A DNA stretch of 64,000 nt from Candidatus Uhrbacteria bacterium (GCA_016929435.1 JAFGIV010000022.1:26918-90917), one strand, 5' to 3'; numbered from the stretch's first letter, positions 2,077-49,112 are shown. Program-made: numbers and translations. Notes: generated from the letters alone by a model not told the origin.

Positions 2077-2808
2077 CTATCCGGGGGCGATCAGCGTCTC
2101 CCGCAGGCACCGCATCAGCGAATAGTTCGACTGGTAATCCATCCGCTGCGGACCGAGCAGGCCGATGATCCCCTCCCCCGTCTCCGGCGTCCCATAGCGC
2201 AGGACGATGATGCTGGTGCCGCGGCCGAACGGGTTTTCCTCACCGATCAGGACATCGACATCCCGGGTCATCCGCCCCTCCAGCTCGTTCAGGACCTGAT
2301 CAAGCCGATCCAGGGCATGAGTCACCGCAAACAGCAGCTTCTCGTCCCGAAACTCCGGGTGGCGGAAAAGGTTCTCCATGCCGGTCAGGTGGAACCGCCC
2401 GTCGTTCAGGCTGACGAAAACCGTCCCCTTAGTCAGTCGGGCCAGACTTTGGGCGAAAGACAGGGAACGGTCGGCAATTCCGGCCCGAACCGCCTGCTGG
2501 ACCTCAACCAACTGGCGCTCCTGCTCCGCCGACGGCCTGGTTTTGGGTTCCACGAACTCGCTGACGAAATACCGGTAACCAATCTCGGTAGGGATCCGTC
2601 CGGCCGAAGTGTGCGGCTGTCTCAAAAGCCCCTGCTCCTCCAAGACGGCCATGTCGTTCCTGACCGTGGCCGGGGAAACTCCGAAATCGTATTTTTCGAC
2701 GATCGAACCCGAACCGACCGGTTCGGCGGTATCGACGAATTCCCGGACCACTGCCCAGAGAACCTTTTTCCTTCGATTTTCGGCGGAATCACCCATTGAC
2801 ATACGCAT
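2077..2808 (-). CDS. hrcA: heat-inducible transcription repressor HrcA
   Basis: The N-terminus ([73 protein letters not shown]) is the HrcA winged-helix region. A CIRCE element lies immediately upstream. Confidence 0.85.
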
Positions 2809-2814
2809 GAAAGA

Positions 2815-2841
2815 TTAGCACTCCTGACAGGAGACTGCTAA
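2815..2841 (-). promoter_or_regulatory. CIRCE operator (HrcA binding site)
   Basis: TTAGCACTC-ctgacagga-GACTGCTAA is the 9-N9-9 CIRCE inverted repeat (consensus TTAGCACTC-N9-GAGTGCTAA) with one mismatch, located 7 nt upstream of the hrcA start. Confidence 0.85.
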
Positions 2842-2851
2842 TCCTAAAGGG

Positions 2852-2880
2852 ATTATGCCTCCCTTTTTTAAGGCTGTCAA
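2852..2880 (-). promoter_or_regulatory. sigma-A type promoter of the hrcA operon
   Basis: On the minus strand, -35 TTGACA (complement of 2875-2880), a 17-nt spacer and -10 CATAAT (complement of 2852-2857), placing CIRCE just downstream of -10. Confidence 0.5.
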
Positions 2881-2904
2881 GAGGGGCAGAAAATCCCGCA
2901 TCCG

Positions 2905-2948
2905 ATAAAAAAACGGCTTTGGTTATGGGCCCAAAGCCGTCTTTATTC
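2905..2948 (-). terminator. rho-independent terminator, bidirectional in shape, serving the 2974..3417 gene
   Basis: Perfect 10-bp stem acggctttgg/ccaaagccgt with an 8-nt loop. Flanked by an A7 run that becomes a T7 run after the hairpin on the minus-strand transcript. Confidence 0.6.
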
Positions 2949-2973
2949 AAGAAGAAGCCCTTCCTTCTGCCTA

Positions 2974-3417
2974 CTATTCCTCTTCTTCGTCCAATGCCTC
3001 TGCGGACGGTTTCCCGGTGCAGATACCGTCCAGACTGAAATCACATACCGTGTTCACAGGACAATCACGGTCTGACCAACAAAATATCGCGCAGAAGTAT
3101 GGGGCGTTTCCGTAGGCGTCGGATATTACACATTGTTCCTCCCCGGGAACGATGTCGGGGCAGTTTTTTTCGTCGGCAAAACCGTATCGAAAGCACTGGG
3201 TAGAACAAAACCCGTACTCGTCAGAGACGAGTTTTACACATTTCTGGCCACTTTGGTCACCTTCCCCGTTATCACAGTCCCAGTCTGAATTGCAGGACTG
3301 CCCCCACAACGGGGCCTTGTCTTCGTCATCCTCGCCATCCCCCTGACATGCCATCGTCAACACCACCGACATGACCATTACTGCCATTGTCATCATAATC
3401 AACCCCATTTTTCTCAT
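2974..3417 (-). CDS. cysteine-rich secreted lipoprotein, member of a paralogous family
   Basis: Start adjusted to MRKMGLIMMTMAVMVMSVVLTMAC (signal peptide plus lipobox). RBS GGAGGG lies 7 nt upstream. About 16 Cys in 110 mature residues, homologous to the central module of the 4870..5796 product (...YGFCS..C...DCP...IC.G). Confidence 0.7.
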   Translation of the reverse strand: MRKMGLIMMTMAVMVMSVVLTMACQGDGEDDEDKAPLWGQSCNSDWDCDNGEGDQSGQKCVKLVSDEYGFCSTQCFRYGFADEKNCPDIVPGEEQCVISDAYGNAPYFCAIFCWSDRDCPVNTVCDFSLDGICTGKPSAEALDEEEE

Positions 3418-3483
3418 TACACACCCTCCTGTTGGGTTTTGGATGCCGCCGTTCGGCGGACACCATTTGTTAAAGACACCGAA

Positions 3484-3512
3484 ATGTTGACATAAATTTG
3501 GCCATCTGTCAA
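3484..3512 (-). promoter_or_regulatory. promoter of 2974..3417 gene (TTGACA-N17-CAACAT)
   Basis: -35 TTGACA (complement of 3507-3512), 17-nt spacer and a weak -10. The same architecture and downstream leader motif recur in the paralog promoters at 4760-4788 and 5862-5890. Confidence 0.4.
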
Positions 3513-3542
3513 GAGCCAAGAAGGTCAAGCGACAACCCGAAC

Positions 3543-3578
3543 AAAAAAGCGGGCGACCGACGGAAAGTCGGCGCCCGC
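3543..3578 (-). terminator. rho-independent terminator of the M8 protease gene
   Basis: Stem gcgggcgaccgac/gtcggcgcccgc with loop ggaaa, preceded on the + strand by A6, which is a T-run after the hairpin on the minus-strand transcript. Confidence 0.55.
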
Positions 3579-3616
3579 AAAAACAGTCAGAAAGAACAAT
3601 GCGAAGCGGTCAGCGG

Positions 3617-4696
3617 TCAAATTGTCCTGAACGGCAGGCGCCTAATGTCCTGCGTCAGGTCAAATACCTTGCCGACTCCCCGCCTTGAGAAGGCGGTTGA
3701 GAGGCTGAAAACGTCGGCAGCGCCGTAGTTAACGGCGTAACCGATATCCTCCATTGATCCTATGGTGACTATACTCACCGGCTCAAACGCCGATCCGGAA
3801 GTGAATCCGGTCATCGCCTCGACTCCAAAAACCGACTCCCTCCAGTGGCCGTCCTGGGTTCCGGCACCGTAATTTCCGTTCTCCACCGGAACCTTATGGC
3901 CATCATAATACGCCCCACCTACCTGCTCGAAAGCCGCCAACGCCTCGGTCCCAACGAAATGGGTATCAGCCCCCGGGTTGTAAAGGGAGGGGTTTTTGAG
4001 AAGACCCATGGCTTCCCAAAAAATACCGAATCCCAAGGAGTGTCCCATCTCGTGGAAAGCCACATTAGACAGGACGCCCTCCGCCAGCATCTGATCGGCA
4101 TCACTGTCATCTATGACGATGATGCTGACTGCCGGCAGAAGACTCGACCCTCGCCAAACGCAGGGGCCGGAATACCCCAAAATGCCTCCTGCCCCGTCAA
4201 TCGGGGCGATCTGGACAATTATTACGATATCGTCGATATCGTAGTCAATCCGGGGATGGGGTAACCCGTCACAGTATCCGGCCTCTATCGGGCTGGCGGA
4301 AAAACTGGCGGTCGGCAAATCTCCCACGATGATTCGCTCCCAACGAGCGGATGCCTCGTCGAAGGCGGATTCCGCGGACCTGCTGACTTGAGACACGAAA
4401 ATGAAATCAATATCGTATTCCCCACCTATGTCCGTATCCGCATCCGTATCGGTATCCGTATCGGCGTCCGCATCGGCATCAGCGTCAGCATCGGCATCCG
4501 AGCCGCCTAGGTCAACGCAGAACCCGGAAGCGCAGGTCAAATCCCCATCACAAGCCCCGCCTTCCGTGCACTGGCAGCCTTCGCTGCCGATCGCACAACC
4601 CCCTTCTCCGCTGCCCTCATCCTCATCACAGGCCGAAAGGCCAATCACCATCAGAAACATCGCCACGGACAGAATCGTTACGTTCAGGTTTTGCAT
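3617..4696 (-). CDS. leishmanolysin-like (peptidase M8 family) zinc metalloprotease lipoprotein with an N-terminal Cys-rich EGF-like module and a (DA)n/(DT)n linker
   Basis: Start at MQNLNVTILSVAMFLMVIGLSAC (lipobox) with RBS GGAGGGG upstream. HEMGHSLGF matches the M8 HExxHxxGF motif, with a distal His/Met-turn candidate (...DGHWRESVFGVEAMTG). N-terminal module C-x5-C-x-C-x5-C-x5-C-x4-C, then DADADADADADTDTDTDADTD. Confidence 0.6.
   Translation of the reverse strand: MQNLNVTILSVAMFLMVIGLSACDEDEGSGEGGCAIGSEGCQCTEGGACDGDLTCASGFCVDLGGSDADADADADADADTDTDTDADTDIGGEYDIDFIFVSQVSRSAESAFDEASARWERIIVGDLPTASFSASPIEAGYCDGLPHPRIDYDIDDIVIIVQIAPIDGAGGILGYSGPCVWRGSSLLPAVSIIVIDDSDADQMLAEGVLSNVAFHEMGHSLGFGIFWEAMGLLKNPSLYNPGADTHFVGTEALAAFEQVGGAYYDGHKVPVENGNYGAGTQDGHWRESVFGVEAMTGFTSGSAFEPVSIVTIGSMEDIGYAVNYGAADVFSLSTAFSRRGVGKVFDLTQDIRRLPFRTI
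4431..4500. repeat. hexanucleotide microsatellite (GTATCC/GCATCG-like units) encoding the (DA)n/(DT)n linker
   Basis: tccgtatccgcatccgtatcggtatccgtatcggcgtccgcatcggcatcagcgtcagcatcggcatccg. An imperfect 6-nt periodicity lies inside the M8 protease gene. Confidence 0.8.
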
Positions 4697-4759
4697 TTCA
4701 CCCCTCCTATGGGTATGTGGGCGTTCCATTATGGAAACGCCATTTTCAAAGACGCCGAC

Positions 4760-4788
4760 ACCTTAGCGCTGTTTGCGGTTTTTGTCAA
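4760..4788 (-). promoter_or_regulatory. promoter of M8 protease gene (TTGACA-N17-TAAGGT)
   Basis: Minus strand TTGACA aaaaccgcaaacagcgc TAAGGT, followed by the conserved leader GTCTTTGAAAATGGCG plus a hairpin. Confidence 0.5.
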
Positions 4789-4796
4789 GAGATACC

Positions 4797-4838
4797 GAGA
4801 AACAAAAGGCGGATACAGGAGAAAATCCAGTATCCGCC
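4797..4838 (-). terminator. rho-independent terminator of the 4870..5796 gene
   Basis: Perfect 9-bp stem ggcggatac/gtatccgcc with a 13-nt loop, followed on the minus strand by TTTTGTTTCT. Confidence 0.55.
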
Positions 4839-4869
4839 GTAACCAAGCCCGAACCAAAGAACGTGATAA

Positions 4870-5796
4870 TCAGCAGTCTTCCTCTATATCGACAAAGAAA
4901 TCTTCTGTAACCCCCGCGCAAAAGGGATAGTCGCAGAAGCCGTCCCCTACCCAATCACACGGATCGTCGGCACCGCAGGTGCAGGCATCATATACCAAAT
5001 CTTCACATGCGCCGTCGCATCCGCCATCTTCCCCAATATGAGATCCAGCACAAATGCTTATGCCTTCACTCATCCAATAGTGGCAATAACCGTCCGGACA
5101 ATCGGAATCGTCTTCGCATGATATGGAACAGAAGTCTGTACCACCATCGATCAACTCAACGAAGCAACCTTCCGTGCCGCTCCCCATATCTGTGCAATAG
5201 GGATCGAGATCGCCAGAATTGCAGCACTCCTTGGAACAAAACCCGTAACCATCAATCAAGATGCATGTCTGCCCAGCCGTACAATCATCGTTGGATAGAC
5301 AATCGCCTCCCCAATCCCCAGATACCGGTTCCGCATCGCATACTCCGCTACCACAATCGTCACTGTCATCGAACGGACTGGAGACGGCCTGAGAACAGTC
5401 CTCATCGCAGTACCCGTCACCGACCCAGTTGCAGGGGTCATCGGAACCGCAGGTGCAGGCATCATATACCAAATCTTCACAGGCGCCGTAGCACTCGTCA
5501 GCGTCACCGTCAGCATCGGTGTCGGTGTCCGTATCGGTGTCAGTGTCCGTATCGGTGTCGGTATCCGTATCGGTGTCGGTGTCCGTATCGGTGTCAGACC
5601 CCGGATTTCCCGGATCAACGCAACGACCGGAAGCGCACACTAAGCCCGGATCGCATCCACCGCCCGGGGTGCACTCGCACCCCTTATTGCCGACCTGGCA
5701 ATCATCATCCATTTCATCCCCCCGGCAACCGGGTGCAAAAAGGGCCATTATTGCCGCTACCGCCACGAACAACATCCCAATCGATAGTTTCTTCAT
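4870..5796 (-). CDS. cysteine-rich secreted lipoprotein with (DT)14 linker and internally duplicated Cys modules
   Basis: Start at MKKLSIGMLFVAVAAIMALFAPGC (lipobox) with RBS AGGAGGGG. The N-terminal module (CQVGNKGCECTPGGGCDPGLVCASGRCVD) is paralogous to the M8 protein N-terminus. Then (DT)14 DADGDADE; the module YGACEDLVYDACTCGSDDPCNWVGDGYCD is repeated near the C-terminus, and the central module is paralogous to the 2974..3417 product. Confidence 0.7.
   Translation of the reverse strand: MKKLSIGMLFVAVAAIMALFAPGCRGDEMDDDCQVGNKGCECTPGGGCDPGLVCASGRCVDPGNPGSDTDTDTDTDTDTDTDTDTDTDTDTDTDADGDADECYGACEDLVYDACTCGSDDPCNWVGDGYCDEDCSQAVSSPFDDSDDCGSGVCDAEPVSGDWGGDCLSNDDCTAGQTCILIDGYGFCSKECCNSGDLDPYCTDMGSGTEGCFVELIDGGTDFCSISCEDDSDCPDGYCHYWMSEGISICAGSHIGEDGGCDGACEDLVYDACTCGADDPCDWVGDGFCDYPFCAGVTEDFFVDIEEDC
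5497..5598. repeat. hexanucleotide microsatellite (GTGTCG/GTATCC-like units) encoding (DT)n
   Basis: About 17 tandem 6-nt units (gtcggtgtccgtatcggtgtcagtgtccgtatcggtgtcggtatccgtatcggtgtcggtgtccgtatcggtgtc). Confidence 0.85.
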
Positions 5797-5861
5797 CCTT
5801 ACCCCTCCTATTGGGTATATGGGCCTCCCGTTCGGGAGCGCCATTTGTTAAAGACACCGAA

Positions 5862-5890
5862 ATTTTAATGCAAATCGCATATTTTGTCAA
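5862..5890 (-). promoter_or_regulatory. promoter of 4870..5796 gene (TTGACA-N17-TAAAAT)
   Basis: Minus strand TTGACA aaatatgcgatttgcat TAAAAT, followed by the conserved leader TTTCGGTGTCTTTAACAAATGGCG plus a hairpin. Confidence 0.55.
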
Positions 5891-5912
5891 GGGCCCATCC
5901 TGACACGGCCGA

Positions 5913-5951
5913 ACCAAAACAAAAACGGCTTTGAATTATGGCCAAAACCGT
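5913..5951 (-). terminator. rho-independent terminator of the small lipoprotein gene, paralogous to the terminator at 2905..2948
   Basis: Hairpin acggctttg-aattatggc-caaaaccgt, followed on the minus strand by TTTTTGTTTTGG. Near-identical in sequence to the 2905..2948 hairpin (gacggctttgg...ccaaagccgt). Confidence 0.5.
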
Positions 5952-5987
5952 CTTTCTTGAGAAGAAATCCCTCCCTCTCTCCCCTCT

Positions 5988-6161
5988 TTATCTTTCCTCT
6001 TTTTTTTCTTCCTCACCCGCATCAACTCCACCCATCGGAATGCTGACCAAGACCCGACCAGCATCCGACTTGTGTGCCGATGAGGATGAGGAAGTGGCGC
6101 AACCGCCAATTACCATAATCATCGTCAGTATCAACACCAACAAAACCCGAATTTCTCTCAT
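5988..6161 (-). CDS. small lipoprotein (57 aa), not in the ORF track because under 60 aa
   Basis: Minus-strand ATG (complement of 6159-6161) translates to MREIRVLLVLILTMIMVIGGCATSSSSSAHKSDAGRVLVSIPMGGVDAGEEEKKEER with stop TAA. RBS AAGGAG, its own promoter and its own terminator. Confidence 0.5.
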   Translation of the reverse strand: MREIRVLLVLILTMIMVIGGCATSSSSSAHKSDAGRVLVSIPMGGVDAGEEEKKEER

Positions 6162-6198
6162 CTATCTTCTCCTTTGTTTACCTGTTTTGATTGGACAA

Positions 6199-6227
6199 AC
6201 TATAGCGTTTTTAGGCGGTTTTGTCAA
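6199..6227 (-). promoter_or_regulatory. promoter of small lipoprotein gene (TTGACA-N17-TATAGT)
   Basis: Minus strand TTGACA aaaccgcctaaaaacgc TATAGT. This is the fourth promoter of the array with the same -35 and spacing. Confidence 0.55.
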
Positions 6228-6298
6228 GCCTGACAGGCAAAGACCGCCGGCTCTGGCCGACGGCCTTACCTGGCCAAATTCAACCGAAAGAAGTTGGG

Positions 6299-6892
6299 TT
6301 ATCCCTCCTTCTTCGCCCCCCCGGAATGGCTGATGTCGGACAGGAGAACGTTCTCCACGAAAATCCCCCGCGGATAGAATATCCTCTCCAGTTCGTTCTT
6401 GCATTCCACCTCCACGGCATCGCGCTTGGCGGAAACGACATCCTGATAGTCGTAGCGGGAGGCGATCATCCGCATCCGGGAACGGATGGTCGGCCGGACG
6501 ATCTTGGCCACGAAATCCTCCCCTATGTTCTGCCACATGGTCGGAACCTGGTTGATGTCCAAACGGAGCAGTACGGTCCCCTCAATGGATATCTGCTTGC
6601 CGTCCGCCGTCTGGGCGATGATCGGCAGGTCACCCAAGGCCTGCTCGTGTTCCGGGTTGAACTGCCGGCTGATGCCGTACTCCAGGGTCTGGGTATTGAA
6701 AAGCTTGGCCTTCTGCCAAAACGGTATCTTCAGGTGCAGTCCGGGGGTCAGAACCTTCTTCAGCACTCCCCGCCCCAGGTCATATACGCAGGCCACATAC
6801 CCCGGCGGAACGTGAACGAAAAGCCCCTTCAGGACATCCTCCACCACGAAGGAATACATTATCTTGTCCAGGCTGTCTCCGGATCGGGACAT
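6299..6892 (-). CDS. SPFH/Band 7 (prohibitin/HflK-like) domain protein
   Basis: VPPGYVACVYDLGRGVLKKVLTPGLHLKIPFWQKAKLFNTQT... resembles the SPFH domain beta-sheet core. Confidence 0.55.
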   Translation of the reverse strand: MSRSGDSLDKIMYSFVVEDVLKGLFVHVPPGYVACVYDLGRGVLKKVLTPGLHLKIPFWQKAKLFNTQTLEYGISRQFNPEHEQALGDLPIIAQTADGKQISIEGTVLLRLDINQVPTMWQNIGEDFVAKIVRPTIRSRMRMIASRYDYQDVVSAKRDAVEVECKNELERIFYPRGIFVENVLLSDISHSGGAKKEG

Positions 6893-6925
6893 AAGACGGA
6901 CGGTTAGGTTGAATTACGGGCTTCC

Positions 6926-7612
6926 CTATGATTCCCAGCCGGAAATCATGCGCCTGATCCAGAATATGACCATTCCGAAAAACAGGGAAGTCAGGATGAA
7001 AAGGGATTTCACCATCGGCAGGAGCATCAGGACGGCCAAGGTGAACAGGGGGAAGAAGATCATGTACATCACGTCGGCCTTGGTGACCAGGTGCTCGCGC
7101 TTCTTCTGGACGGCATATATCTGGGCGAACAGCACCGCCGCCACTGCCGTTGCCCAAAACCAGCTGCGGGCCGCCAGGTCAAAACCGAAAAAGTCGGTAT
7201 TAACGGCTGCGGGCGGACTGATCCAGGGGTAGATAAGGTCCGCGCCGGTGAAACGGATTCCTGCCATGAAAACCTGGTATATGAGCACCAAAACCAGACC
7301 CTGTACCCCCAAGACGAATACCTTCGACCAATAGCTGACCCTATGGTCCTTCAGTAGTTCCCGAATCTTCTCCTTCCGCCTTACCGGATCGGTCCTGAAC
7401 TCCCGCTCCAGTTCCCCGATTTTCTCGCTTAGCCTCTCATAGCTGGAACGGCTTCGCTCGTCGATGATCGTGAACGGCAAGAGAGCGACGCGCAGGACCA
7501 CGGTCAATTCCACGATAGCCAGCCCCAGGTTACCGAAAGCCGGCCCCTGATACAGCCAAATCAGGGCGTTCAGGAGCGGGACGTATAGCCAATCGTGCCA
7601 AAATGCACCCAT
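6926..7612 (-). CDS. yidC: membrane protein insertase YidC (short form)
   Basis: Polytopic 228-aa protein; N-terminal LIWLYQ...GLAIVELTVVLRVALLPFT and overall topology typical of short YidC/Oxa1. Confidence 0.7.
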   Translation of the reverse strand: MGAFWHDWLYVPLLNALIWLYQGPAFGNLGLAIVELTVVLRVALLPFTIIDERSRSSYERLSEKIGELEREFRTDPVRRKEKIRELLKDHRVSYWSKVFVLGVQGLVLVLIYQVFMAGIRFTGADLIYPWISPPAAVNTDFFGFDLAARSWFWATAVAAVLFAQIYAVQKKREHLVTKADVMYMIFFPLFTLAVLMLLPMVKSLFILTSLFFGMVIFWIRRMISGWES

Positions 7613-7723
7613 AGTGATTTCCTTGACGGAACAGAGAAATTATATCCGAACGGCGCTTGGGAAGCAACATCCAAAAGGCAAGGGGGCGTCTCCTGACGCC
7701 CCCTTCGCCGTGCCGATTCCGGC

Positions 7724-8062
7724 TTACATCTGCCTGTAGGCACCGTTCCGCCAGGCGTCGATCGACTGCCTGAGGAACGGGTTTTCCACGATCTCGTAGA
7801 TCATGGACTTTCCGTTGCGGTTCATGGTGACGATCCGGTACTTGCGGAGAATCCGCAGCTGGTGCGAGACCCGAGAAACGGAATATCCGAACAGCTTGGC
7901 GATCTCGCTGACCGTCAGCCCGTTTTTGGACTGGGCCAGGGCACAGATTATCCTGTATCGGACCTGTCCGGAAATCGCCCGGAGAACGTCATGATTCTTC
8001 CTGAACTTGTCGCTGGCAAGATATTGGCGTATCTTGTCCAGTTCCCTGTCGGTTACTGGCAT
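7724..8062 (-). CDS. ArsR/SmtB-family HTH transcriptional regulator
   Basis: 112 aa with a wHTH core (...RIICALAQSKNGLTVSEIAKLFGYSVSRVSHQLRILRKYRIVTMNRNGK). Confidence 0.65.
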   Translation of the reverse strand: MPVTDRELDKIRQYLASDKFRKNHDVLRAISGQVRYRIICALAQSKNGLTVSEIAKLFGYSVSRVSHQLRILRKYRIVTMNRNGKSMIYEIVENPFLRQSIDAWRNGAYRQM

Positions 8063-8105
8063 GTTTTTGCGTTATTAATTCTTAACATGATTTTTTTGCG
8101 CAAAA
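8060..8105. promoter_or_regulatory. nested inverted repeats overlapping the arsR-like start codon (putative autoregulatory operator)
   Basis: CATGTT-N18-AACATG nested inside TTTTTGCG-N27-CGCAAAA; the outer CATG includes the regulator's start codon. Confidence 0.35.
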
Positions 8106-8263
8106 TTTACGGTAGCAACGAACAGAAAAAGTGTCAAGCGGCAAAAACCTGCGGATATCCCCACCCGCTCCGGACCGCCCTTTTCACGGACCTTGACGGG
8201 ACCGCAAAAAGATGGTAAAAATAGGCAAACCAACGAAACAACCGCACCTTAAAGGAGGCCGAA

Positions 8264-8845
8264 ATGTATGAGGAGCAGAGTGCCAGGGACCTGACATTGG
8301 TCCTGGCCATGGGCCGCATTGGTCCCGAGCAGTTCGGGATCTTCGGACGGGGAAACATAGCGGATGGGGGGCCGCTCACCATCACGGCCACCGTGATAGG
8401 GGCGAGTCACGTAATCAACCTGTCCTACGACGACAGGGAGGTTTTCTCAGAGCTATTCGCATGCGTCGAATTCGCCTGCGATATCCCGCACCTGATCATC
8501 CCCCCGTGGGATGACCGGGGCCGGATTTCCAAAATTGAATTCAGGGCAGATTCCGCTACCCTGAGATATTCCTTCTGCCCCCGACTGCTTTCGGTCGGGG
8601 ACGGACGGAAAGAGACGGAACGGATAGCCGAAGCCGCTGTCCGAGCCGAAAACAACGGCCACGAGTTGGGTCTCATCCACGAGTTCCCTCCCGAACCGCA
8701 CGAAACATGCGGATCACGGACAATCGTCCTTGTCCGTTGGGACAGGGAAAAGAGGGCCATCTCAACCGAGACGGTCCACGAGTACCTCAATGAGGACCGG
8801 GTGGCATTCACCCGGTCGATAATTTCCATCCTCCCGCCGTCATAG
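8264..8845 (+). CDS. hypothetical protein
   Basis: 193-aa ORF with coding-like composition; no recognisable motifs. Confidence 0.35.
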   Translation: MYEEQSARDLTLVLAMGRIGPEQFGIFGRGNIADGGPLTITATVIGASHVINLSYDDREVFSELFACVEFACDIPHLIIPPWDDRGRISKIEFRADSATLRYSFCPRLLSVGDGRKETERIAEAAVRAENNGHELGLIHEFPPEPHETCGSRTIVLVRWDREKRAISTETVHEYLNEDRVAFTRSIISILPPS

Positions 8846-8948
8846 TAGCCCACCACGACACGACGCACCTTCCCCTCAAGCGCCTTTTCGGGCGCTTTTT
8901 CGTTCCCAAAACCCCAACAGGGAGCCGTCAGGCTGCGGGAAGGCGGAA

Positions 8949-9356
8949 TCAGGCCAAGACCTCCTGAATCACCCCGACCACGTCCTTCAGGCTGGAGGAG
9001 TCCTTCAGCAGGTGGCGGCTTATGTTGTGCTGAAATATGCCCTCCTGATTTTTCGTCCCGATGATATTGGTGAAGATGACCACGGGAACGTCCTTTCCCC
9101 AAACGGATTGCCGAAGGCCCTTCAGCATGGCGTAACCGTCCATTACCGGCATTATCAGGTCCAAAAGGACCAGGTCCGGCCTCTCCCTTTCCCCCAAATC
9201 CAGCCCGTCCCTGCCGTTGGCGGCCGTCACCACGTCGAAATCGGATTTTTCCAAAAACCGACGGAGGGGCTTGACCAGGACTTCCTCGTCCTCCACCACC
9301 ATCACCTTCCTCTTCCTTGCGCTCTTGCCGATCTTGACCATACTTCCCGATCCCAT
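8949..9356 (-). CDS. response regulator receiver (CheY-like, single domain)
   Basis: KVMVVEDEEVLVKPLRRFLEKSDFDVVTAANGRDGLDLGERERPDLVLLDLIMPVMDGYAMLKGLRQ... carries the receiver-domain acidic pocket and the phospho-acceptor D in LLDLIMP. Confidence 0.7.
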   Translation of the reverse strand: MGSGSMVKIGKSARKRKVMVVEDEEVLVKPLRRFLEKSDFDVVTAANGRDGLDLGERERPDLVLLDLIMPVMDGYAMLKGLRQSVWGKDVPVVIFTNIIGTKNQEGIFQHNISRHLLKDSSSLKDVVGVIQEVLA

Positions 9357-9476
9357 GATTTACGTGCAGTAATTATACACTGATTCCCGATACCGTAAAT
9401 GCCCGGTTTGGGTGGGGCAAATGCCGTTGGCGGAAAAACCGTTCCGACAGGAGACACCCGCCGAACGGATAGGGTC

Positions 9477-9505
9477 TGGACAACCGAAAAAGGACATGGT
9501 ATTGT
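9477..9505 (+). promoter_or_regulatory. candidate promoter of tRNA-Glu (TGGACA-N17-TATTGT)
   Basis: Hexamers with 17-nt spacing ending ~15 nt before the mature tRNA 5' end. Confidence 0.35.
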
Positions 9506-9520
9506 CCTTTCGGATATTGG

Positions 9521-9598
9521 GGTCCCATCGTCTAGCCCGGTCCAGGACGTCTCCCTCTCACGGAGAAAACAGGGGTTCGAATCCCCTTGGGACTACCA
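9521..9598 (+). tRNA. tRNA-Glu (anticodon CUC), CCA encoded
   Basis: Hand-folded cloverleaf: acceptor GGTCCCA/TGGGACT; anticodon stem TCTCC/GGAGA with loop CTCTCAC; T arm AGGGG-TTCGAAT-CCCCT. Closely resembles bacterial tRNA-Glu (GTCCCCTTCGTCTAG...CAGGGGTTCGAATCCCCT...). Confidence 0.85.
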
Positions 9599-9602
9599 GA
9601 AG

Positions 9603-9632
9603 CACTCACCGAATGGTGGGTGTTTTTATTTT
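9603..9632 (+). terminator. rho-independent terminator after tRNA-Glu
   Basis: Stem cactcacc/ggtgggtg (one G-U) with loop gaat, then TTTTTATTTT. Confidence 0.6.
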
Positions 9633-9694
9633 GTTCGCCTTTAAAAAACCGTGATATAGTTTTTGCGTAATCTAAGGCCTGTTTTCTTGGCTAT

Positions 9695-10081
9695 ATGTCT
9701 ATATCCATAAAAAATATTTTTACCGCCCATAACAATCGAAGCGCTTCTTTTCGGAAAAAAGCTCTTGGTTATTTTCTTGTCTTTCTGGGTGCGTTTCCAG
9801 CGGTTGCATTTGCTTTAGCCTTCGTATTTTGTTTGTTCTTTCCGAATAATCACCTGATGAGGACATACATCATGGTCGATTTTGCTCTTGTCGAAGTCGT
9901 TGGCCCTATGGCATACGTGTTGCTATTGCTGTTGGCTTTGGCTGTGTTTTCTGCGCCGTTTTTCCTGTTGGTCTATATTGGCTTTCTTCTTGTTGGTTCG
10001 AAGAAAAAGAAACCGTCGGGCCAAGCCGTGCTGTTCGCGGTGTTTGCCTATTTTATCTGCTTTTCCGTTTTTTTTTTCTGA
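9695..10081 (+). CDS. small polytopic membrane protein (3-4 TM), AT-rich islet
   Basis: Hydrophobic segments; stop TGA overlaps the next ATG (TGATG), so the two are translationally coupled. Confidence 0.5.
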   Translation: MSISIKNIFTAHNNRSASFRKKALGYFLVFLGAFPAVAFALAFVFCLFFPNNHLMRTYIMVDFALVEVVGPMAYVLLLLLALAVFSAPFFLLVYIGFLLVGSKKKKPSGQAVLFAVFAYFICFSVFFF

Positions 10082-10823
10082 TGACTGAGAATCTGAATAC
10101 GAAATTTGACAGGAAAGTCTCTGGAATGAAAAGTCTTAATACTGGAATCGGGCATCCTATCTTGCCCGAATTTGATGTCATTAACATTTCCAAGTATGTG
10201 AAGTACGATGACATTGTCATTTATCAGGGAGATAGCTACGGGTACAAGTATACGGGTGATGCCTATAGCCAGATCGCCTTGGACCTTGACGTTGAAGGTC
10301 GTACTCTGTTTGTCAGGCGCTCTGAGATGGAGACCTATGTCGTACTCTGTTTGTCAGGCGCTCTGAGATGGAGACCTATTACGATGTCGAAATAGGTCAT
10401 GTGAAGAACAGGTATCCTTTATACCCGGCCGGCACCAAGAAACTGACCATCGAAATCACCGTTCCTGACCTTGACCGCATCATTGTTGAGGGTGGACATG
10501 TCAGCCTAGAGGGTTTGGAAGTGAATGACCTGCGGATTGACCTAAATAAGCGGTTCGTTGAGCTGAAAGGGGATTTGGTGGTGAGAGACGGTTTTGTCCT
10601 GAATGCTAAAGGGGGAGTGGTAGATTTGGAGGGTTCCGCAAAAAACCTAGAAATAAATTCCGGGGACTGTTGGATTGATATGGAGAATTTTACGGCTGAG
10701 ACCGCCTCAATAAACGCCGTTAACACCAGTCGTTTGAACGTTTACGTAACGGAAAACATGGAGGTCATTTCCGGGGTTAATTCTGGGATAGTCAAACATT
10801 TCGATTTCCATCAGGAAGAGTAA
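10081..10823 (+). pseudogene. putative-adhesin/beta-helix-like (DUF2807/DUF4097-like) gene split into two ORFs (10081..10395 and 10368..10823) by a frameshifting 41-bp tandem duplication
   Basis: Removing one 41-bp copy joins ...GRTLFVRRSEMETY to YDVEIGHVKNRYPLY... in frame, giving a single 233-aa protein. Confidence 0.6.
10298..10379 (+). repeat. perfect tandem duplication, 2 x 41 bp (gtcgtactctgtttgtcaggcgctctgagatggagacctat)
   Basis: Copy 10298-10338 is identical to copy 10339-10379. 41 is not a multiple of 3, so the duplication causes a frameshift. Confidence 0.95.
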
Positions 10824-10841
10824 CCGTGTTTGAAAAGACGA

Positions 10842-10953
10842 CGTTCCAGCACGAAAAGCACTACCACCCGCATCCAGCACGGGGAGGCTGTCTCCAATAG
10901 CTGGAGACGGCCTTTAAAGCCTCGAAACAAAAACACCCGAAAGGGTGTTTTTG
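10842..10953 (+). repeat. intergenic palindromic repeat element copy A (~110 bp: hairpin GGCTGTCTCCAatagcTGGAGACGGCC plus terminator CACCCgaaaGGGTG-T5)
   Basis: ~88% identical to copy B (13580..13691); the core palindrome also occurs at 12390..12428. Sits 19 nt after a stop codon. Confidence 0.85.
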
Positions 10954-11118
10954 TGTGCTGGGTTATTTTAATTGCGAAGGGGGGGTGCTTTATGGTATTG
11001 TGCAAATAACATATTTCAATCTAGAAAATAATTTTCGCTTCGTTAGTGGCGGTGCTTTATATCGTTATTCGAAGCTATGTCGAGGGAATTATTAATAATA
11101 TACTTAACCATTGCAAAT

Positions 11119-11724
11119 ATGAAAAATAATATTTTTATTAGAGTGATGTTGGCCACAATGGGCCTCTTTTCTCTATCTTTGTTCTTTTTGGTCTCCAATG
11201 TATACGCATATGTAGCAAGTGGATACACCCGCCCTTCAGGAAACGTAAGTTTTTACTTGCATGGCGCACTGGTGAATGTGGGGTGGCAGGGAGCGATAGA
11301 CAACGCTCGTAGCGAATGGAACGGGGCAGGATCTTCCTTTACGTTCTCTCAAAGCGGTACCGCTACAAGAAGCCCGAGCTTGGTTCAAAGCAGCACGACT
11401 GATGGGTATAACGACATCGGAGCACTTTCGTTGGACCTCAGTTATGTTGGATTTACATCTTCTGTTGCTAGTGGAACATCGATCATTGAAACGGACACAG
11501 CTTATAACTTGGAGAAGTCCTTTGATGTAAATCCGAATATTTATCAGTATGATGTTGAGAGTGTTGCTGTACATGAATTGGGCCACTGGTTACATTTGGA
11601 CGAAACACAGTCGTGGCGATGCTTTGCGTCTCCGCCAAGTATGTGCGGATCAGTTTCTATGGGGAGCACATATATGCGTTCTATAGAATCCGACGACATT
11701 AACGGCATTCAATATATCTATTAA
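11119..11724 (+). CDS. secreted metzincin-like zinc metalloprotease (snapalysin M7 / matrixin M10-like)
   Basis: Signal peptide MKNNIFIRVMLATMGLFSLSLFFLVSNVYA. Zinc motif VAVHELGHWLHLDE, a Cys pair, Met-turn candidate STYM and C-terminal DDINGIQYIY (matrixin DDIxGIQxLY signature). Confidence 0.6.
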   Translation: MKNNIFIRVMLATMGLFSLSLFFLVSNVYAYVASGYTRPSGNVSFYLHGALVNVGWQGAIDNARSEWNGAGSSFTFSQSGTATRSPSLVQSSTTDGYNDIGALSLDLSYVGFTSSVASGTSIIETDTAYNLEKSFDVNPNIYQYDVESVAVHELGHWLHLDETQSWRCFASPPSMCGSVSMGSTYMRSIESDDINGIQYIY

Positions 11725-11725
11725 T

Positions 11726-12337
11726 ATGAAGAAAACAACATTAATTGTAGCGGGATTGGCGGTTATAGTGTCTCTTACGACGCTGATGTACGGACTTGAT
11801 GGCAAAGACCAGGGAGGCAGCGCAACCCCACAGGGCGACGGAACGAGATTGTTGGTCAATGCCTTGCGTACAGAGCCTGATTTTAGGGTTGATACCCTTG
11901 ATTCCAGTATGATAGTTCAGGGGGAGGTGATTGCGGTCGATGAACTGTCTGACCAACCCTTAAGCCACAATACGCGTATAACCATTTCTGTCGACCAGTT
12001 GATTAAGGGGGATGATGTCAGCGAAACGATAGAGGTTTATGCGTTAGGTGGCGGCGGTGTAGAGGTTGTAGGAGATAACGAGAAAATAGGTCTTGTTGCA
12101 GGTGACGTCGGCATTTTCTTCCTTGGTTGGATGCCTGTGTCTGAAGGGTTCTACACATTTTTTGGCGGTTCAAGGGGCGTTTATGTTGAAAAGGACGCAC
12201 ATATTCGTAATTGGGGTGGAAAATCAATTAAAACTGATAGGTTTGTGCGCGAGATTGAGAAAGTGCTAGCTGACCCTGATGATAGAGAACATCAAAAGAC
12301 TTTGGGAGAGATGATCCGTGATAAGGAGTCTGAATAG
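11726..12337 (+). CDS. secreted partner protein P1 (signal peptide; paralogous to 12898..13527)
   Basis: MKKTTLIVAGLAVIVSLTTLMYG signal peptide; starts 1 nt after the protease stop. Shares the core ...V.G.VI......V.V...IKGD....TV...GG with the P2 paralog. Confidence 0.5.
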   Translation: MKKTTLIVAGLAVIVSLTTLMYGLDGKDQGGSATPQGDGTRLLVNALRTEPDFRVDTLDSSMIVQGEVIAVDELSDQPLSHNTRITISVDQLIKGDDVSETIEVYALGGGGVEVVGDNEKIGLVAGDVGIFFLGWMPVSEGFYTFFGGSRGVYVEKDAHIRNWGGKSIKTDRFVREIEKVLADPDDREHQKTLGEMIRDKESE

Positions 12338-12389
12338 AAGGTGTAAGAGGATACTACTTTTTCTTGGGACTACCACTTACATAAAGCGC

Positions 12390-12428
12390 GAGGAGGCCGT
12401 CTCCAATAGCTGGAGACGGCCGTTAGGG
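12390..12428 (+). repeat. repeat element copy C (core palindrome only, perfect 11-bp stem GGCCGTCTCCA atagc TGGAGACGGCC)
   Basis: Identical core to copy A. Lies immediately upstream of, and truncating, the second protease ORF; an in-frame TAG sits inside the repeat. Confidence 0.8.
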
Positions 12429-12430
12429 TC

Positions 12431-12895
12431 TTGTTGGTTACGCCTTTAGGTTCTGCGCTTGCTTGTTCCCAGGATTCATTGTTTTGGACTAGCGCCGTTG
12501 ATAGCGGGGAGATACGTTGGGGCGGTTCCACAAAGTATTCGTGGGAGTGGCAAGATGCGAGGGGTGCATGGAACCAGTTGAGTCCCGTTGATATTCTTCC
12601 TGATACAATATACACATATGAGGATTTAAAAATTTCGGACGTTGACAGCCATTACTTGGGATATTGGGGGGCATACATTCCTTCGTTGGGGACTGATGAT
12701 TTGGAGCTTAATGAATATTTTATGGATGGGGGCTCATACGGAAACAGGGCACATATCGTCTCTCATGAACTTGGCCGTGCTTTAGGTCTCGACCATGTTG
12801 ATGGTTGCGATCATGTGATGGATGATTATCAATATTGCACTTCAGTCACACCGTCATCAAACGATGAATGTAGCTACGATGAATTATGGAACTAG
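12431..12895 (+). CDS. degenerate paralog of the metzincin-like protease (5'-truncated, no signal peptide, zinc-motif H->R); possible pseudogene
   Basis: The ORF begins at TTG with no upstream ATG, and an in-frame stop lies in the repeat just upstream. Motif HIVSHELGRALGLDHVDGCDH is snapalysin-like HExGHxLGLxDH, but the second His is Arg (CGT where His would be CAT). Confidence 0.5.
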   Translation: MLVTPLGSALACSQDSLFWTSAVDSGEIRWGGSTKYSWEWQDARGAWNQLSPVDILPDTIYTYEDLKISDVDSHYLGYWGAYIPSLGTDDLELNEYFMDGGSYGNRAHIVSHELGRALGLDHVDGCDHVMDDYQYCTSVTPSSNDECSYDELWN

Positions 12896-12897
12896 GG

Positions 12898-13527: not shown

Positions 13528-13579
13528 GTTACGGGTTTGTGACAGAACTGATGTCGCACTGCCGTCTTGAAAAATCACC

Positions 13580-48422: not shown

Positions 48423-49112
48423 ATGCGAAAGGCCCCAATATTCCCCATCCTGACCGTCATGTTGGCCGTGGCCGTACTGGCCATCCACTACCTTTCGGTT
48501 CGGATGATCGATACGAAAGGTTCCGAAACGAATCCGGATGTCGGTTCCCCTACTCCGCTGGAGATGCCGACGATCGTCTTCGGCAACCCGATGGTCGGAA
48601 ACAACTCCGCCAGGGTGACGATCGTGGAATTCAGCGATTACCTCTGCGGACCGTGCGGATCCCTGGACCAGACCCTAACACGGCTGGCCGGCGAGTATCC
48701 GAACGACGTCCGGTTGGTCTGGAAGGATTTCCCGAACGAGAAGAGCCATCCCGGATCGGTTGAGGCGGCCATGGCCGCCCGCTGTGCCGCCGATCAGGGG
48801 GCCTTTTGGGAATATCACCGGGCGATCTTCAGCGACCAGACCGGCCTGAATACGGACGGTTACGTCCAGATCGCCGATTCCCTTGGCCTGGACACCGAAA
48901 AGTTCCGGAACTGCCAGGAAAACCGGCTGTCCGAACCGCTGGTCAGGCGGGACCTGGAGGAAGCCCTCCGGCTTCGCCTTGATGCCACCCCCTACATCTT
49001 CGTGAACGACCGGAGACTCTCCGGCGCCCTGAGCTACGAGATACTGAAGAGCATCGTGGACGGGGAGATCAGCGAATCGCTGCGGACCGAAAACGCCCCC
49101 TCCGGCCTATGA
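48423..49112 (+). CDS. DsbA-like thiol:disulfide oxidoreductase (thioredoxin fold)
   Basis: N-terminal TM helix plus a CGPC active site. Confidence 0.65.
   Translation: MRKAPIFPILTVMLAVAVLAIHYLSVRMIDTKGSETNPDVGSPTPLEMPTIVFGNPMVGNNSARVTIVEFSDYLCGPCGSLDQTLTRLAGEYPNDVRLVWKDFPNEKSHPGSVEAAMAARCAADQGAFWEYHRAIFSDQTGLNTDGYVQIADSLGLDTEKFRNCQENRLSEPLVRRDLEEALRLRLDATPYIFVNDRRLSGALSYEILKSIVDGEISESLRTENAPSGL

What the first reader, a model, noticed from the sequence alone, without database searches (positions are those of the whole stretch)
2905..6240. Tandem array of four self-contained transcription units for modular, cysteine-rich secreted lipoproteins (incl. an M8 leishmanolysin-like protease)
Four consecutive minus-strand genes (2974-3417, 3617-4696, 4870-5796, 5988-6161) each carry their own near-consensus promoter (TTGACA-N17-TAnnnT), their own rho-independent terminator and a lipoprotein-type signal peptide. 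The proteins are built from shuffled Cys-rich modules. An EGF-like C-x5-C-x-C-x5-C-x5-C-x4-C N-module is shared by the M8 protease and the 4870 gene. A ...YGFCS..C...DCP...IC.G module is shared by the 2974 gene and the centre of the 4870 gene. A third module is duplicated within the 4870 gene. The array's GC is lower (~50%) than the core genome. Terminators at 2905-2948 and 5913-5951 are near-identical, so whole cassettes (gene plus terminator) have been duplicated. This looks like a diversifying surface/secreted protein family, for example for host or partner-cell interaction.
Basis: seen in the sequence. Interest (0 to 1): 0.8.

Follow-up and report, generated by a model that had tools for sequence, protein, structure and literature searches.

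The report
Accessory surface-lipoprotein gene island in Uhrbacteria
A 3.3-kb lineage-specific island in a tiny "candidate phyla radiation" bacterium carries four separately transcribed genes for membrane-anchored surface proteins, one of them a compact leishmanolysin-type protease. Three of the four are assembled from shared, uncharacterised cysteine-rich modules, and three share a conserved 5' leader; the kind of locus is ordinary and only the details are new.

Summary
Four minus-strand genes lie between hrcA and an SPFH/YidC pair in a Candidatus Uhrbacteria (CPR) genome: A 5988-6161, B 4870-5796, C 3617-4696, D 2974-3417. Each has a perfect TTGACA -35 box, a strong hairpin+U terminator and a lipoprotein-type signal peptide.

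All three claimed module homologies are significant (BLASTP 1e-9, 1e-9; the intra-B repeat is 63% identical in protein and 82% in DNA). Each module also recurs in proteins from other metagenomes. C has the full M8 zinc site.

Corrections:
- A is not cysteine-rich.
- The N-module is not EGF by any HMM.
- The two "near-identical" terminators are about 74% identical.
- GC is 53%, not 50%.
- D's -10 box is CAACAT.

New findings:
- B, C and D share a 65-nt 5' leader whose hairpin differs in sequence but keeps its pairing. I found it nowhere else.
- Two relatives have other genes at this site.
- GC3 is 0.50-0.63 in the array against 0.76-0.82 in the flanks.
- The closest homologues I could place lie on non-CPR-type contigs, so the island was probably acquired horizontally.
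- A DsbA-like oxidoreductase is encoded in the window.

Function (surface display, host or substrate interaction) is inferred. "Diversifying" is untested. Interest is modest.

The parts
6199..6227 (-). Promoter of gene A: TTGACA-17-TATAGT
   Evidence: Scores 11/12 in the scan. Intergenic, upstream of an AGGAG Shine-Dalgarno site and the ATG.
5988..6161 (-). Gene A: 57-aa lipoprotein (MREIRVLLVLILTMIMVIGG|C...). Ser-rich, with an acidic tail. Not cysteine-rich and carries no module.
   Evidence: ORF and sequence. The exact protein is also called in the Logan assembly. No Pfam or NCBIfam family.
5913..5955 (-). Terminator of A. Homologous to the terminator of D.
   Evidence: Detected by the scan. 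Fold -27.4 kcal/mol, z -2.3. Aligns with the region after D.
5862..5890 (-). Promoter of gene B: TTGACA-17-TAAAAT
   Evidence: Scores 11/12.
5797..5861 (-). 5' leader of B: UCGGUGUCUUUAACAAAUGG, then a hairpin (CUCCC/GGGAG), then CCAUAUACCCAAUAGGAGGGG
   Evidence: Alignment of the three leaders. Hairpin z -3.1. nhmmer E=6e-22.
4870..5796 (-). Gene B, 308 aa. Layout: signal peptide and Cys24; N-module (nt 5620-5700); Asp-Thr linker (5515-5595); module 3a (5338-5487); module 2 (5035-5337); module 3b (4873-5034). 37 Cys in total.
   Evidence: Homologues of each module found.
4800..4838 (-). Terminator of B (GGCGGAUAC...GUAUCCGCC followed by UUUUGUUU)
   Evidence: Fold -24.9 kcal/mol, z -4.0.
4760..4788 (-). 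Promoter of gene C: TTGACA-17-TAAGGT (weak -10 box)
4697..4759 (-). 5' leader of C: UCGGCGUCUUUGAAAAUGG, then a hairpin (GGCGUUUCC/GGAACGCC), then CACAUACCCAUAGGAGGGG
   Evidence: z -3.3; E=3e-18.
3617..4696 (-). Gene C, 359 aa. Layout: signal peptide and Cys23; N-module (nt 4517-4597); Asp-Ala/Asp-Thr linker (4431-4500); compact M8 metalloprotease domain (about 3620-4414). Zinc-site residues: HEMGH at residues 215-219 (nt 4040-4054), His284, Met295.
   Evidence: Pfam PF01457 at 1.5e-9, 37.5 bits against a cutoff of 21. Aligned to leishmanolysin 1LML. Homologues at 40-46% identity. Catalytic residues conserved.
3541..3578 (-). Terminator of C (GCGGGCGCCGAC...GUCGGUCGCCCGC followed by UUUUUUGUU)
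   Evidence: Fold -28.7 kcal/mol, z -2.9. Also found by the scan.
3484..3512 (-). Promoter of gene D: TTGACA-17-CAACAT with an extended-type TG just upstream
3418..3483 (-). 5' leader of D: UCGGUGUCUUUAACAAAUGG, then a hairpin (CCGCC/GGCGG), then AUCCAAAACCCAACAGGAGGG
   Evidence: z -2.8; E=2e-21.
2974..3417 (-). Gene D, 147 aa. Layout: signal peptide and Cys24, then a single module 2 (nt 2998-3315; 12 Cys), then an acidic tail.
   Evidence: The module-2 family has 111 cluster representatives among 1.84 billion proteins. AlphaFold2 mean pLDDT is 75, about 85 within the domain.
2903..2944 (-). Terminator of D. Homologous to the terminator of A.
   Evidence: Fold -29 kcal/mol, z -3.3. Repeat families D6 and I2.
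2815..2880 (-). Right-hand boundary of the island: the hrcA promoter (TTGACA-17-CATAAT) and the CIRCE operator TTAGCAGTC-N9-GAGTGCTAA. DNA similarity to the closest relative starts at position 2856.
48423..49112 (+). Not part of the island, but relevant to it: a membrane-anchored DsbA-like thiol-disulfide oxidoreductase with a CGPC active site.
   Evidence: Pfam Thioredoxin_4 at 3e-24 and DSBA at 1e-16. Sequence.

Best explanation
WHAT IT IS. The region is a lineage-specific accessory island of about 3.35 kb in a Candidatus Uhrbacteria (Patescibacteria/CPR) chromosome. It lies between the conserved ArsR-YidC-SPFH genes and the hrcA-grpE-dnaK operon.

HOW IT IS EXPRESSED. It holds four monocistronic units. 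Each has a sigma-70-type promoter, a Shine-Dalgarno site, a gene for a Sec-exported lipoprotein, and an intrinsic terminator.

WHAT THE PRODUCTS DO (inferred).
- After lipidation of the +1 Cys, the products would stay tethered to the outer face of the single cell membrane.
- In B and C a small six-Cys N-module and an Asp-Thr / Asp-Ala dipeptide repeat follow the anchor. I read this as an anchor-proximal knob plus an acidic, extended stalk that holds the functional part away from the membrane.
- The functional parts are a compact leishmanolysin-type zinc protease (C), a 12-Cys 'module 2' (D, and the centre of B), and two copies of an 8-Cys 'module 3' (B).
- The Cys modules are expected to be disulfide-locked by an extracytoplasmic DsbA-like enzyme, which the window encodes.

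HOW IT AROSE. The array was built by duplicating and recombining cassettes. These include the promoter, leader and signal peptide; the N-module and linker; module 2; module 3; and the 3' end with its terminator. It was probably acquired from non-CPR bacteria, where the same modules sit in front of many different secreted enzymes.

REGULATION. B, C and D share a 5' leader that is under constraint, so I expect them to be co-regulated through it, at the RNA level or via an operator at +1 to +20.

LIKELY ROLE. Surface display of a protease and of binding modules, or possibly protease-modulating modules, for contact with or digestion of a host or partner's surface or of environmental protein.

SHOWN VERSUS INFERRED.
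- Shown: gene structure, motifs, module homology, absence of the island at this site in the two relatives I could check, compositional deviation, leader conservation.
- Inferred: export and lipidation, stalk function, disulfides, horizontal transfer, co-regulation, biological role.
For: ORGANISM. GrpE, YidC and D match proteins named Candidatus Uhrbacteria bacterium, from a 98.9-kb contig.

TRANSCRIPTION SIGNALS..

SIGNAL PEPTIDES AND LIPOBOXES..

MODULE HOMOLOGIES.
- Within the array.
- Outside the array: 38 homologues of B. In these the N-module plus D/T linker precedes domains hit by Pfam CAP (PF00188), GH10 (PF00331) or DUF1566 (PF07603). Module 3 sits N-terminal to a PA-domain region, and module 2 follows a trypsin-like protease.
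- Two of these homologues (P0006 and P0008) come from one assembly, GCA_028278265.1, whose contigs carry CheR, PAS kinases, GGDEF and a faint Pfam porin (Porin_O_P) hit, which is not a CPR gene set.

M8 DOMAIN. Pfam score above its gathering threshold, and HEMGH...GHWRESVF..EAMT aligned to 1LML and to 9 homologues. The nearest homologue lies on a contig with a purine-biosynthesis operon, also non-CPR-like.

ISLAND STATUS.
- A relative with 64% HrcA identity has ArsR-YidC-SPFH-[histidine kinase + 93-aa protein]-hrcA-grpE-dnaK.
- A closer relative (83% HrcA identity) has an unrelated gene upstream of hrcA, and DNA similarity starts only at window 2856.
- GC3 is 0.50-0.63 in A-D against 0.76-0.82 in five flanking genes.

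NOT AN ASSEMBLY CHIMERA. Junction-spanning Logan contigs are 100% identical to the window.

LEADER.
- It has three copies only in the window.
- It is 67-77% identical between paralogues, against 53-62% for the adjacent promoter spacer and the signal-peptide DNA.
- A 20-nt block, TCGGTGTCTTTAACAAATGG, is identical in B and D.
- Each copy has a stable hairpin of different sequence at the same place, z -2.8 to -3.3.

DISULFIDE MACHINERY. A DsbA-like CGPC protein is encoded in the window.
Against: - No expression data exist. Promoters, terminators and transcript boundaries are predictions.
- B's lipobox has Pro at -2, and C's signal peptide lacks a basic n-region, so lipidation of these two is less certain.
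- Lgt and LspA could not be looked for, because only 64 kb is available.
- Horizontal origin rests on composition, on absence from two relatives, and on the gene content of a few homologue contigs. Only two homologues carry a taxon name (Deltaproteobacteria bacterium). No phylogeny was made.
- The low GC3 could partly reflect repeat and amino-acid composition.
- The leader has only three paralogous copies. RNAalifold on the MAFFT alignment proposes a different, weak consensus structure, so the fold is not settled. Its conservation could also reflect DNA-level binding or gene conversion.
- The centre of B (5002-5567) is not confirmed by the second assembly.
Confidence: 0.68

Rival explanations
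1. The four genes are one operon. The hairpins would be weak attenuators or stabilisers, and most transcription would read through from the promoter of A, or from SPFH.
For: All four genes are on the same strand and close together, with 165-199 nt gaps. The -10 boxes of C and D match the consensus at only 3 of 6 positions.
Against: Every gene has a perfect -35 box at the correct spacing. Every gene also has a long GC-rich hairpin with a U-tract, and 0-4 of 200 shuffles fold as well. The intergenic regions are long for an operon.
Confidence: 0.12
2. The leader similarity is only a remnant of cassette duplication or gene conversion and has no regulatory function.
For: The copies are paralogues within 2.4 kb. 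The motif was found nowhere else, either in 596 Gb of genomes or in the JGI metagenomes. Three copies cannot give real covariation statistics.
Against: The leader is better conserved than the promoter spacer upstream and the coding sequence downstream. The hairpin arm sequences differ while pairing is kept in all three copies. Gene conversion would homogenise the hairpin as well.
Confidence: 0.3
3. The array is native and vertically inherited in this Uhrbacteria lineage. Its low GC3 would be a by-product of repeats, amino-acid bias or weak selection.
For: The array's promoters look like the neighbouring hrcA promoter. Most homologues carry no taxon name, so homologues within CPR cannot be excluded.
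Against: Two relatives lack the island at this site. GC3 is 0.15-0.3 lower than in all five flanking genes. Every homologue contig I inspected has non-CPR gene content.
Confidence: 0.22
4. C and D form a protease and modulator pair. Module 2 would be a knottin-like inhibitor or a substrate-targeting domain for proteases, not a host-binding adhesin.
For: Five module-2 proteins checked with Pfam carry the module C-terminal to a trypsin-like protease, and about seven more of the 111 cluster representatives have the same length and module position. D lies next to the M8 protease gene. Foldseek's best local matches to the D model are squash trypsin inhibitors and spider knottins, with target-normalised TM about 0.7 over 27-28 residues.
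Confidence: 0.15
5. The island is a mis-assembly or binning contaminant from a non-CPR bacterium.
For: Its composition is atypical and its homologues are non-CPR.
Against: An independent assembly spans SPFH-A-B and B-C-D-hrcA at 100% identity. The flanks on both sides are syntenic with a CPR relative.
Confidence: 0.03

Closest known systems
Leishmanolysin / GP63 (MEROPS family M8; PDB 1LML)
   Same: It shares the HExxHxxGF zinc motif, a distal third His (GHW here, SHI in 1LML) and a Met-turn (EAM here, ELM in 1LML). Both are membrane-tethered extracellular enzymes. The Pfam PF01457 score is above the gathering threshold.
   Different: Only the catalytic core matches (profile positions 165-336 of 529), and I found no match to the regions that flank it in leishmanolysin. 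The domain is about 265 aa. It is anchored by an N-terminal lipid rather than a C-terminal GPI. It is preceded by a six-Cys module and an acidic repeat. The E-value against 1LML itself is only 0.003.
Bacterial M8-like proteins with Big_1/Big_2, PPC or PKD domains (metagenomic; P0044-P0062)
   Same: They share the same compact catalytic domain at 35-46% identity, with an invariant H..H...HWRESVF..E.M core.
   Different: They carry Ig-like accessory domains instead of the Cys N-module and acidic linker. The one contig I inspected is from a non-CPR-type genome.
Ser-Asp dipeptide-repeat stalks of staphylococcal MSCRAMM adhesins (ClfA, SdrC/D)
   Same: Both have a long acidic dipeptide repeat between the anchor and the functional domain. 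The repeat gives weak NCBIfam hits to these models.
   Different: The repeat here is Asp-Thr / Asp-Ala rather than Ser-Asp. It lies next to an N-terminal lipid anchor rather than a C-terminal LPXTG anchor. The hits are far below cutoff and reflect composition only, not homology.
Myxococcal Cys-rich repeat (TIGR04201 Myxo_Cys_RPT)
   Same: Module 2 contains the C-x4-DC-x4-6-C motif twice. B gives a weak hit of 15.8 bits.
   Different: The hit is below the 25-bit cutoff. Module 2 is a larger unit of about 105 aa and 12 Cys with its own conserved W-G, GFC and DCP positions.
Structured 5' leaders of bacterial mRNAs (stabilising 5' hairpins; hairpins that occlude the Shine-Dalgarno site, such as RNA thermometers)
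   Same: The leader has a conserved single-stranded 5' block, then a hairpin, then a short ACCC...GGGG pairing around the Shine-Dalgarno site.
   Different: It matches no Rfam family, even at E of 1 or lower. Only three copies exist, all in one locus. No function was tested.

Membership tests
Peptidase family M8 (leishmanolysin) | Pfam PF01457 score above the gathering threshold | tested here: met
   37.5 bits against 21, E=1.5e-9.
Peptidase family M8 (leishmanolysin) | HExxHxxGF zinc-binding and catalytic motif | tested here: met
   HEMGHSLGF at residues 215-223, aligned to HEMAHALGF of 1LML.
Peptidase family M8 (leishmanolysin) | Distal third His ligand and Met-turn downstream of an insertion | tested here: met
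   His284 lies in GHWRESVF and Met295 in EAM. Both are invariant in 10 aligned homologues and aligned to 1LML.
Peptidase family M8 (leishmanolysin) | Full-length, multi-domain leishmanolysin architecture | tested here: not met
   The match covers only profile positions 165-336 of 529. The domain is about 265 aa.
Peptidase family M8 (leishmanolysin) | Zinc-dependent proteolytic activity | not testable with these tools
   Needs the recombinant protein.
Bacterial lipoproteins (Lgt/LspA substrates) | Signal peptide ending in a lipobox, roughly [LVI][ASTVI][GAS]-C (pattern from established knowledge) | tested here: met
   A has VIGG|C, C has GLSA|C and D has LTMA|C. B has FAPG|C, with Pro at -2, which deviates. 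C has no K/R in its n-region.
Bacterial lipoproteins (Lgt/LspA substrates) | Lgt and LspA encoded in the genome | not testable with these tools
   Only 64 kb of the genome is available, and neither gene was seen in it.
   None of 13 N-module instances hits an EGF Pfam model at E of 10 or lower. There is no significant PDB relative either; the best is ADAMTS-5 at E=0.29.
Myxo_Cys_RPT (TIGR04201) | Score above the curated cutoff of 25 bits | tested here: not met
   15.8 bits for B. E=1.1 for one N-module instance.
Intrinsic (rho-independent) terminators | GC-rich hairpin directly followed by a U-tract, downstream of the stop codon | tested here: met
   Present after all four genes, z -2.3 to -4.0.
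Sigma-70-type promoters | -35 TTGACA and -10 TATAAT, 16-18 nt apart | tested here: met
   The -35 box is perfect in all four. The -10 box matches 5/6 in A and B and 3/6 in C and D; D has an upstream TG. Activity was not tested.
Any described RNA family (Rfam 15), for the shared leader | Covariance-model match | tested here: not met
   No hit on the leaders at gathering score or at E of 1 or lower.

The most novel reading that the evidence does not exclude
The 65-nt leader shared by B, C and D may be a previously undescribed structured cis-regulatory element. It would have a single-stranded 5' recognition block, a hairpin kept by compensatory changes, and partial occlusion of the Shine-Dalgarno site. 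It would put a horizontally acquired surface-protein set under common control in a CPR episymbiont. In the same reading, modules 2 and 3 would be new disulfide-rich folds, with module 2 acting as a protease-associated, double-knottin-like domain that partners the adjacent M8 protease.
Probability: 0.2. Interest if true: 0.55.

Novelty: new member of a known kind. Interest (0 to 1): 0.35.

Why it matters
CPR/Patescibacteria live attached to other cells, and very little is known about what they display on their surface. This locus gives concrete candidates:
- a lipid-anchored leishmanolysin-type protease;
- two rare, unclassified cysteine-rich domains, one of them with only about 110 sequence clusters among 1.84 billion proteins;
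- a generic 'lipid anchor, Cys knob, acidic stalk' N-terminal cassette that other bacteria place in front of many secreted enzymes.

It also suggests that a CPR bacterium borrowed this toolkit from non-CPR neighbours and wired three genes to a common leader. All of this can be tested by expression, structure determination and metatranscriptomics. It does not change any general concept: accessory islands of modular surface lipoproteins are common in bacteria.

Tried and rejected
1. LEADER ELSEWHERE. Exact-pattern scans found nothing real.
- GTDB genomes gave 55 hits. All are single matches in unrelated taxa; those I read look coding (a GVFENG-type peptide), and none has the downstream ACCCA...GGAGG part.
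- JGI metagenomes gave 5 chance hits.
- nhmmer on the window found only the three known copies.
- Upstream regions of distant homologues P0005 and P0006 show no leader.

2. LEADER AS CODING SEQUENCE OR uORF. Rejected. The conserved AUG in AAAUGG is in frame with B, out of frame with D, and followed by a stop after 4 codons in C. It has no Shine-Dalgarno site.

3. LEADER AS AN ECF-TYPE PROMOTER (GTCT -10). By eye, there is no conserved -35 element at the right distance.

4. KNOWN-FAMILY ASSIGNMENT OF THE MODULES. Pfam, NCBIfam and PDB sequence profiles gave nothing significant. My recollection that module 3 resembles Notch LNR repeats (DGxCDxxC...DDxxDC) got no support and is dropped.

5. STRUCTURES.
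- The AlphaFold2 model of module 3 had pLDDT 53 and is unusable.
- The afdb50 library was unavailable.

6. TAXON NAMES OF HOMOLOGUES. The cluster look-up returned none.

7. EXTENDING THE CONTIG BEYOND THE WINDOW. Only short Logan contigs came back.

8. LITERATURE. No paper links Uhrbacteria or Patescibacteria with cysteine-rich proteins or with leishmanolysin.

9. RNAalifold ON THE 3-SEQUENCE MAFFT ALIGNMENT. It gave a weak, different consensus structure because the hairpins are out of register. It was not used as evidence.

Full report
WHAT IS THERE. The window comes from a Candidatus Uhrbacteria (CPR/Patescibacteria) metagenome-assembled genome. The window's GrpE and YidC, and (in its 90%-identity cluster) D, match NCBI proteins of that name on a 98.9-kb contig. 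On the minus strand, four ORFs lie between hrcA (2077-2808, with a CIRCE operator at 2815-2841) and an SPFH/Band_7 gene (6299-6892) followed by YidC and an ArsR-type regulator:
- A: 5988-6161, 57 aa
- B: 4870-5796, 308 aa
- C: 3617-4696, 359 aa
- D: 2974-3417, 147 aa

An independent Logan assembly of run SRR13394437 reproduces window 2387-5001 and 5568-10327 at 100% identity and calls the same C and D proteins. Both junctions between the array and core genes are therefore real. That assembly breaks inside B, at the Asp-Thr repeat and at the internal duplication, so 5002-5567 rests on the MAG assembly alone.

TRANSCRIPTION SIGNALS.
- Each gene is preceded by a perfect TTGACA followed 17 nt later by a -10 box. 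Five of the 18 minus-strand TTGACA in the 64-kb window fall in the 3.35 kb from hrcA's promoter to A's, all in intergenic DNA.
- A and B score 11/12 against consensus. C (TAAGGT) and D (CAACAT with an upstream TG) have weak -10 boxes.
- Each gene ends with a long GC-rich hairpin and a U-tract: -25 to -29 kcal/mol, z -2.3 to -4.0.
- The regions after A and D are homologous over about 75 nt but only about 74% identical, not near-identical.
- Four monocistronic units is the best reading of the sequence. No expression data exist.

PROTEINS.
- All four start with a hydrophobic signal peptide ending in Cys. A, C and D have canonical lipoboxes. B has Pro at -2, and C lacks a basic n-region.
- A has no other Cys and no recognisable domain.
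- B and C share an N-terminal six-Cys module (C-x6-C-x-C-x5-C-x5-C-x4-C; 43% identity over 65 aa, E=1e-9). It is followed by an Asp-Thr or Asp-Ala dipeptide repeat.
- D and the centre of B share a 12-Cys module of about 105 aa (E=1e-9).
- B carries two copies of an 8-Cys module: 63% protein identity, and 82% DNA identity over 104 nt.
- C's C-terminal 265 aa is a compact M8 metalloprotease. Pfam PF01457 scores above threshold. HEMGHSLGF, GHWRESVF and EAMT align to the zinc ligands and Met-turn of leishmanolysin 1LML and are invariant in homologues.

THE MODULES ARE REAL BUT UNCLASSIFIED FAMILIES.
- A search with B found proteins in which the N-module plus D/T linker sits behind a lipoprotein signal and in front of unrelated domains (Pfam CAP, GH10, DUF1566, others). 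It also found proteins with one to three copies of module 3, and small lipoproteins or trypsin-like proteases carrying module 2.
- A profile of module 2 finds only 111 cluster representatives among 1.84 billion proteins. Most are 130-200-aa proteins like D. About a dozen are around 460 aa with the module after a region of about 280 aa; five checked with Pfam carry a trypsin-like protease domain there.
- None of the three modules matches Pfam, NCBIfam or PDB sequences significantly. 'EGF-like' is not supported.
- The module 3 model is unusable.
- A membrane-anchored DsbA-like CGPC protein is encoded at 48423-49112. Extracytoplasmic disulfide formation is therefore plausible.

- From just after the -10 box to the start codon, B, C and D share UCGG(U/C)GUCUUU(A/G)A(C)AAAUGG, then a hairpin, then CC-A-A-ACCCA--AGGAGGG. 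A lacks it.
- The 20-nt block TCGGTGTCTTTAACAAATGG is identical in B and D.
- The leader is 67-77% identical between paralogues, against 53-62% for the promoter spacer and the signal-peptide DNA on either side.
- The hairpin arms differ (CUCCC/GGGAG, CCGCC/GGCGG, GGCGUUUCC/GGAACGCC), but each hairpin is stable relative to shuffles, z about -3.
- It matches no Rfam family. It was not found in GTDB genomes or JGI metagenomes.
- With three linked paralogous copies, I can say it is under constraint. I cannot prove an RNA structure or exclude a DNA operator at +1 to +20.

ORIGIN.
- A relative with 64% HrcA identity, on a 1.5-Mb contig, has the same ArsR-YidC-SPFH ... hrcA-grpE-dnaK-dnaJ backbone. 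Between SPFH and hrcA it has a histidine kinase and a 93-aa cytoplasmic-looking protein.
- A closer relative (83% HrcA identity) has yet another gene upstream of hrcA, and DNA similarity to the window begins only at 2856, in the hrcA promoter.
- Array genes have GC3 of 0.50-0.63 against 0.76-0.82 in five flanking genes. Overall GC is 52.9% against about 59%.
- Homologue contigs that I could inspect carry chemotaxis, GGDEF and purine-biosynthesis genes and a faint Pfam porin hit, a gene set I would not expect in a CPR genome.
- The two homologues that carry a taxon name are 'Deltaproteobacteria bacterium'.
- Together this makes a horizontally acquired accessory island the most likely history. 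No phylogeny was made.

HOW IT MOST LIKELY WORKS. There are four independent transcripts, three of them tied together by the common leader. The products are exported by Sec, lipidated, and held on the outer face of the single membrane. A Cys knob and acidic stalk would project the protease (C) and the module 2/3 domains (B), while D presents module 2 close to the membrane. Disulfides would stabilise the modules. The recurrent fusion of module 2 to trypsin-like proteases, and D's position next to C, suggest that module 2 works with proteases, by substrate or target binding or by modulation. For a CPR episymbiont, the obvious targets are a host cell's surface or scavenged protein. All of this is inference.

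VERDICT. The locus is a new member of a familiar kind, an accessory island of modular surface lipoproteins. It has three modestly new details: the uncharacterised Cys domains, a compact lipid-anchored M8 protease in a CPR genome, and a private conserved leader.

Noticed in passing
window 9521-13600: A low-GC stretch (44-46% against about 60%) starts right after a tRNA at 9521-9595. Its plus-strand ORFs include a DUF2807 adhesin-head-like protein (10368-10823) and a signal-peptide-bearing matrixin-like HExxH protease (11077-11724). A second small protein (12431-12895) has a degenerate HELGR..GLDH motif. Each of these two is followed by an exported-looking protein (11726-12337 and 12886-13527). 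There is a perfect 41-bp x2 tandem repeat at 10298-10379. It looks like a second accessory island encoding secreted proteases.
   Followed up: partly
window 48423-54245: A membrane-anchored DsbA-like CGPC oxidoreductase (48423-49112) is directly followed by a protein with T4SS_pilin and SLT transglycosylase domains (49109-50275) and then by large ORFs without Pfam hits (for example 51981-54245). This may be part of the type IV secretion-like apparatus.
   Followed up: partly
window 2815-2880; L059 9940-10000; L073 400-470: The hrcA promoter carries a CIRCE inverted repeat (TTAGCAGTC-N9-GAGTGCTAA). The repeat is conserved, and a TTGACA -35 box is present, in the two relatives as well.
   Followed up: yes
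L059 3744-4268 and 8286-9791: The 1.5-Mb relative encodes a VKOR-family protein a few kb from the syntenic site. Where the window has the lipoprotein array, it has a HisKA/HATPase kinase plus a 93-aa protein.
   Followed up: partly
window 3464-3466, 4742-4744, 5842-5844 (minus strand): The conserved leader block contains an AUG (AAAUGG). Its frame relative to the gene differs in the three copies: an in-frame extension in B, a 46-codon out-of-frame ORF in D, and a 4-codon ORF in C. The exact 308-aa (B) and 359-aa (C) sequences are absent from the protein collection, which may mean other annotation used upstream starts (324 and 370 aa) that run through the leader.
   Followed up: yes
proteins P0026, P0200, P0201, P0203, P0205 (module-2 family): A recurrent architecture places a trypsin-like serine protease in front of module 2, followed in P0026 by an acidic D/T tail. 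One protein (P0191) has four tandem copies of module 2.
   Followed up: partly
proteins P0057 and P0060 (M8 homologues): Two homologues of C have lost the catalytic Glu (HAFGH and HQMAH) while keeping the HWRESVF..ELM core. They may be pseudo-proteases.
   Followed up: no
window 5002-5567: The independent short-read assembly breaks at the Asp-Thr repeat (near 5568) and at the 82%-identical internal duplication (near 5001). The repeat number and the central architecture of B are therefore not independently verified.
   Followed up: yes
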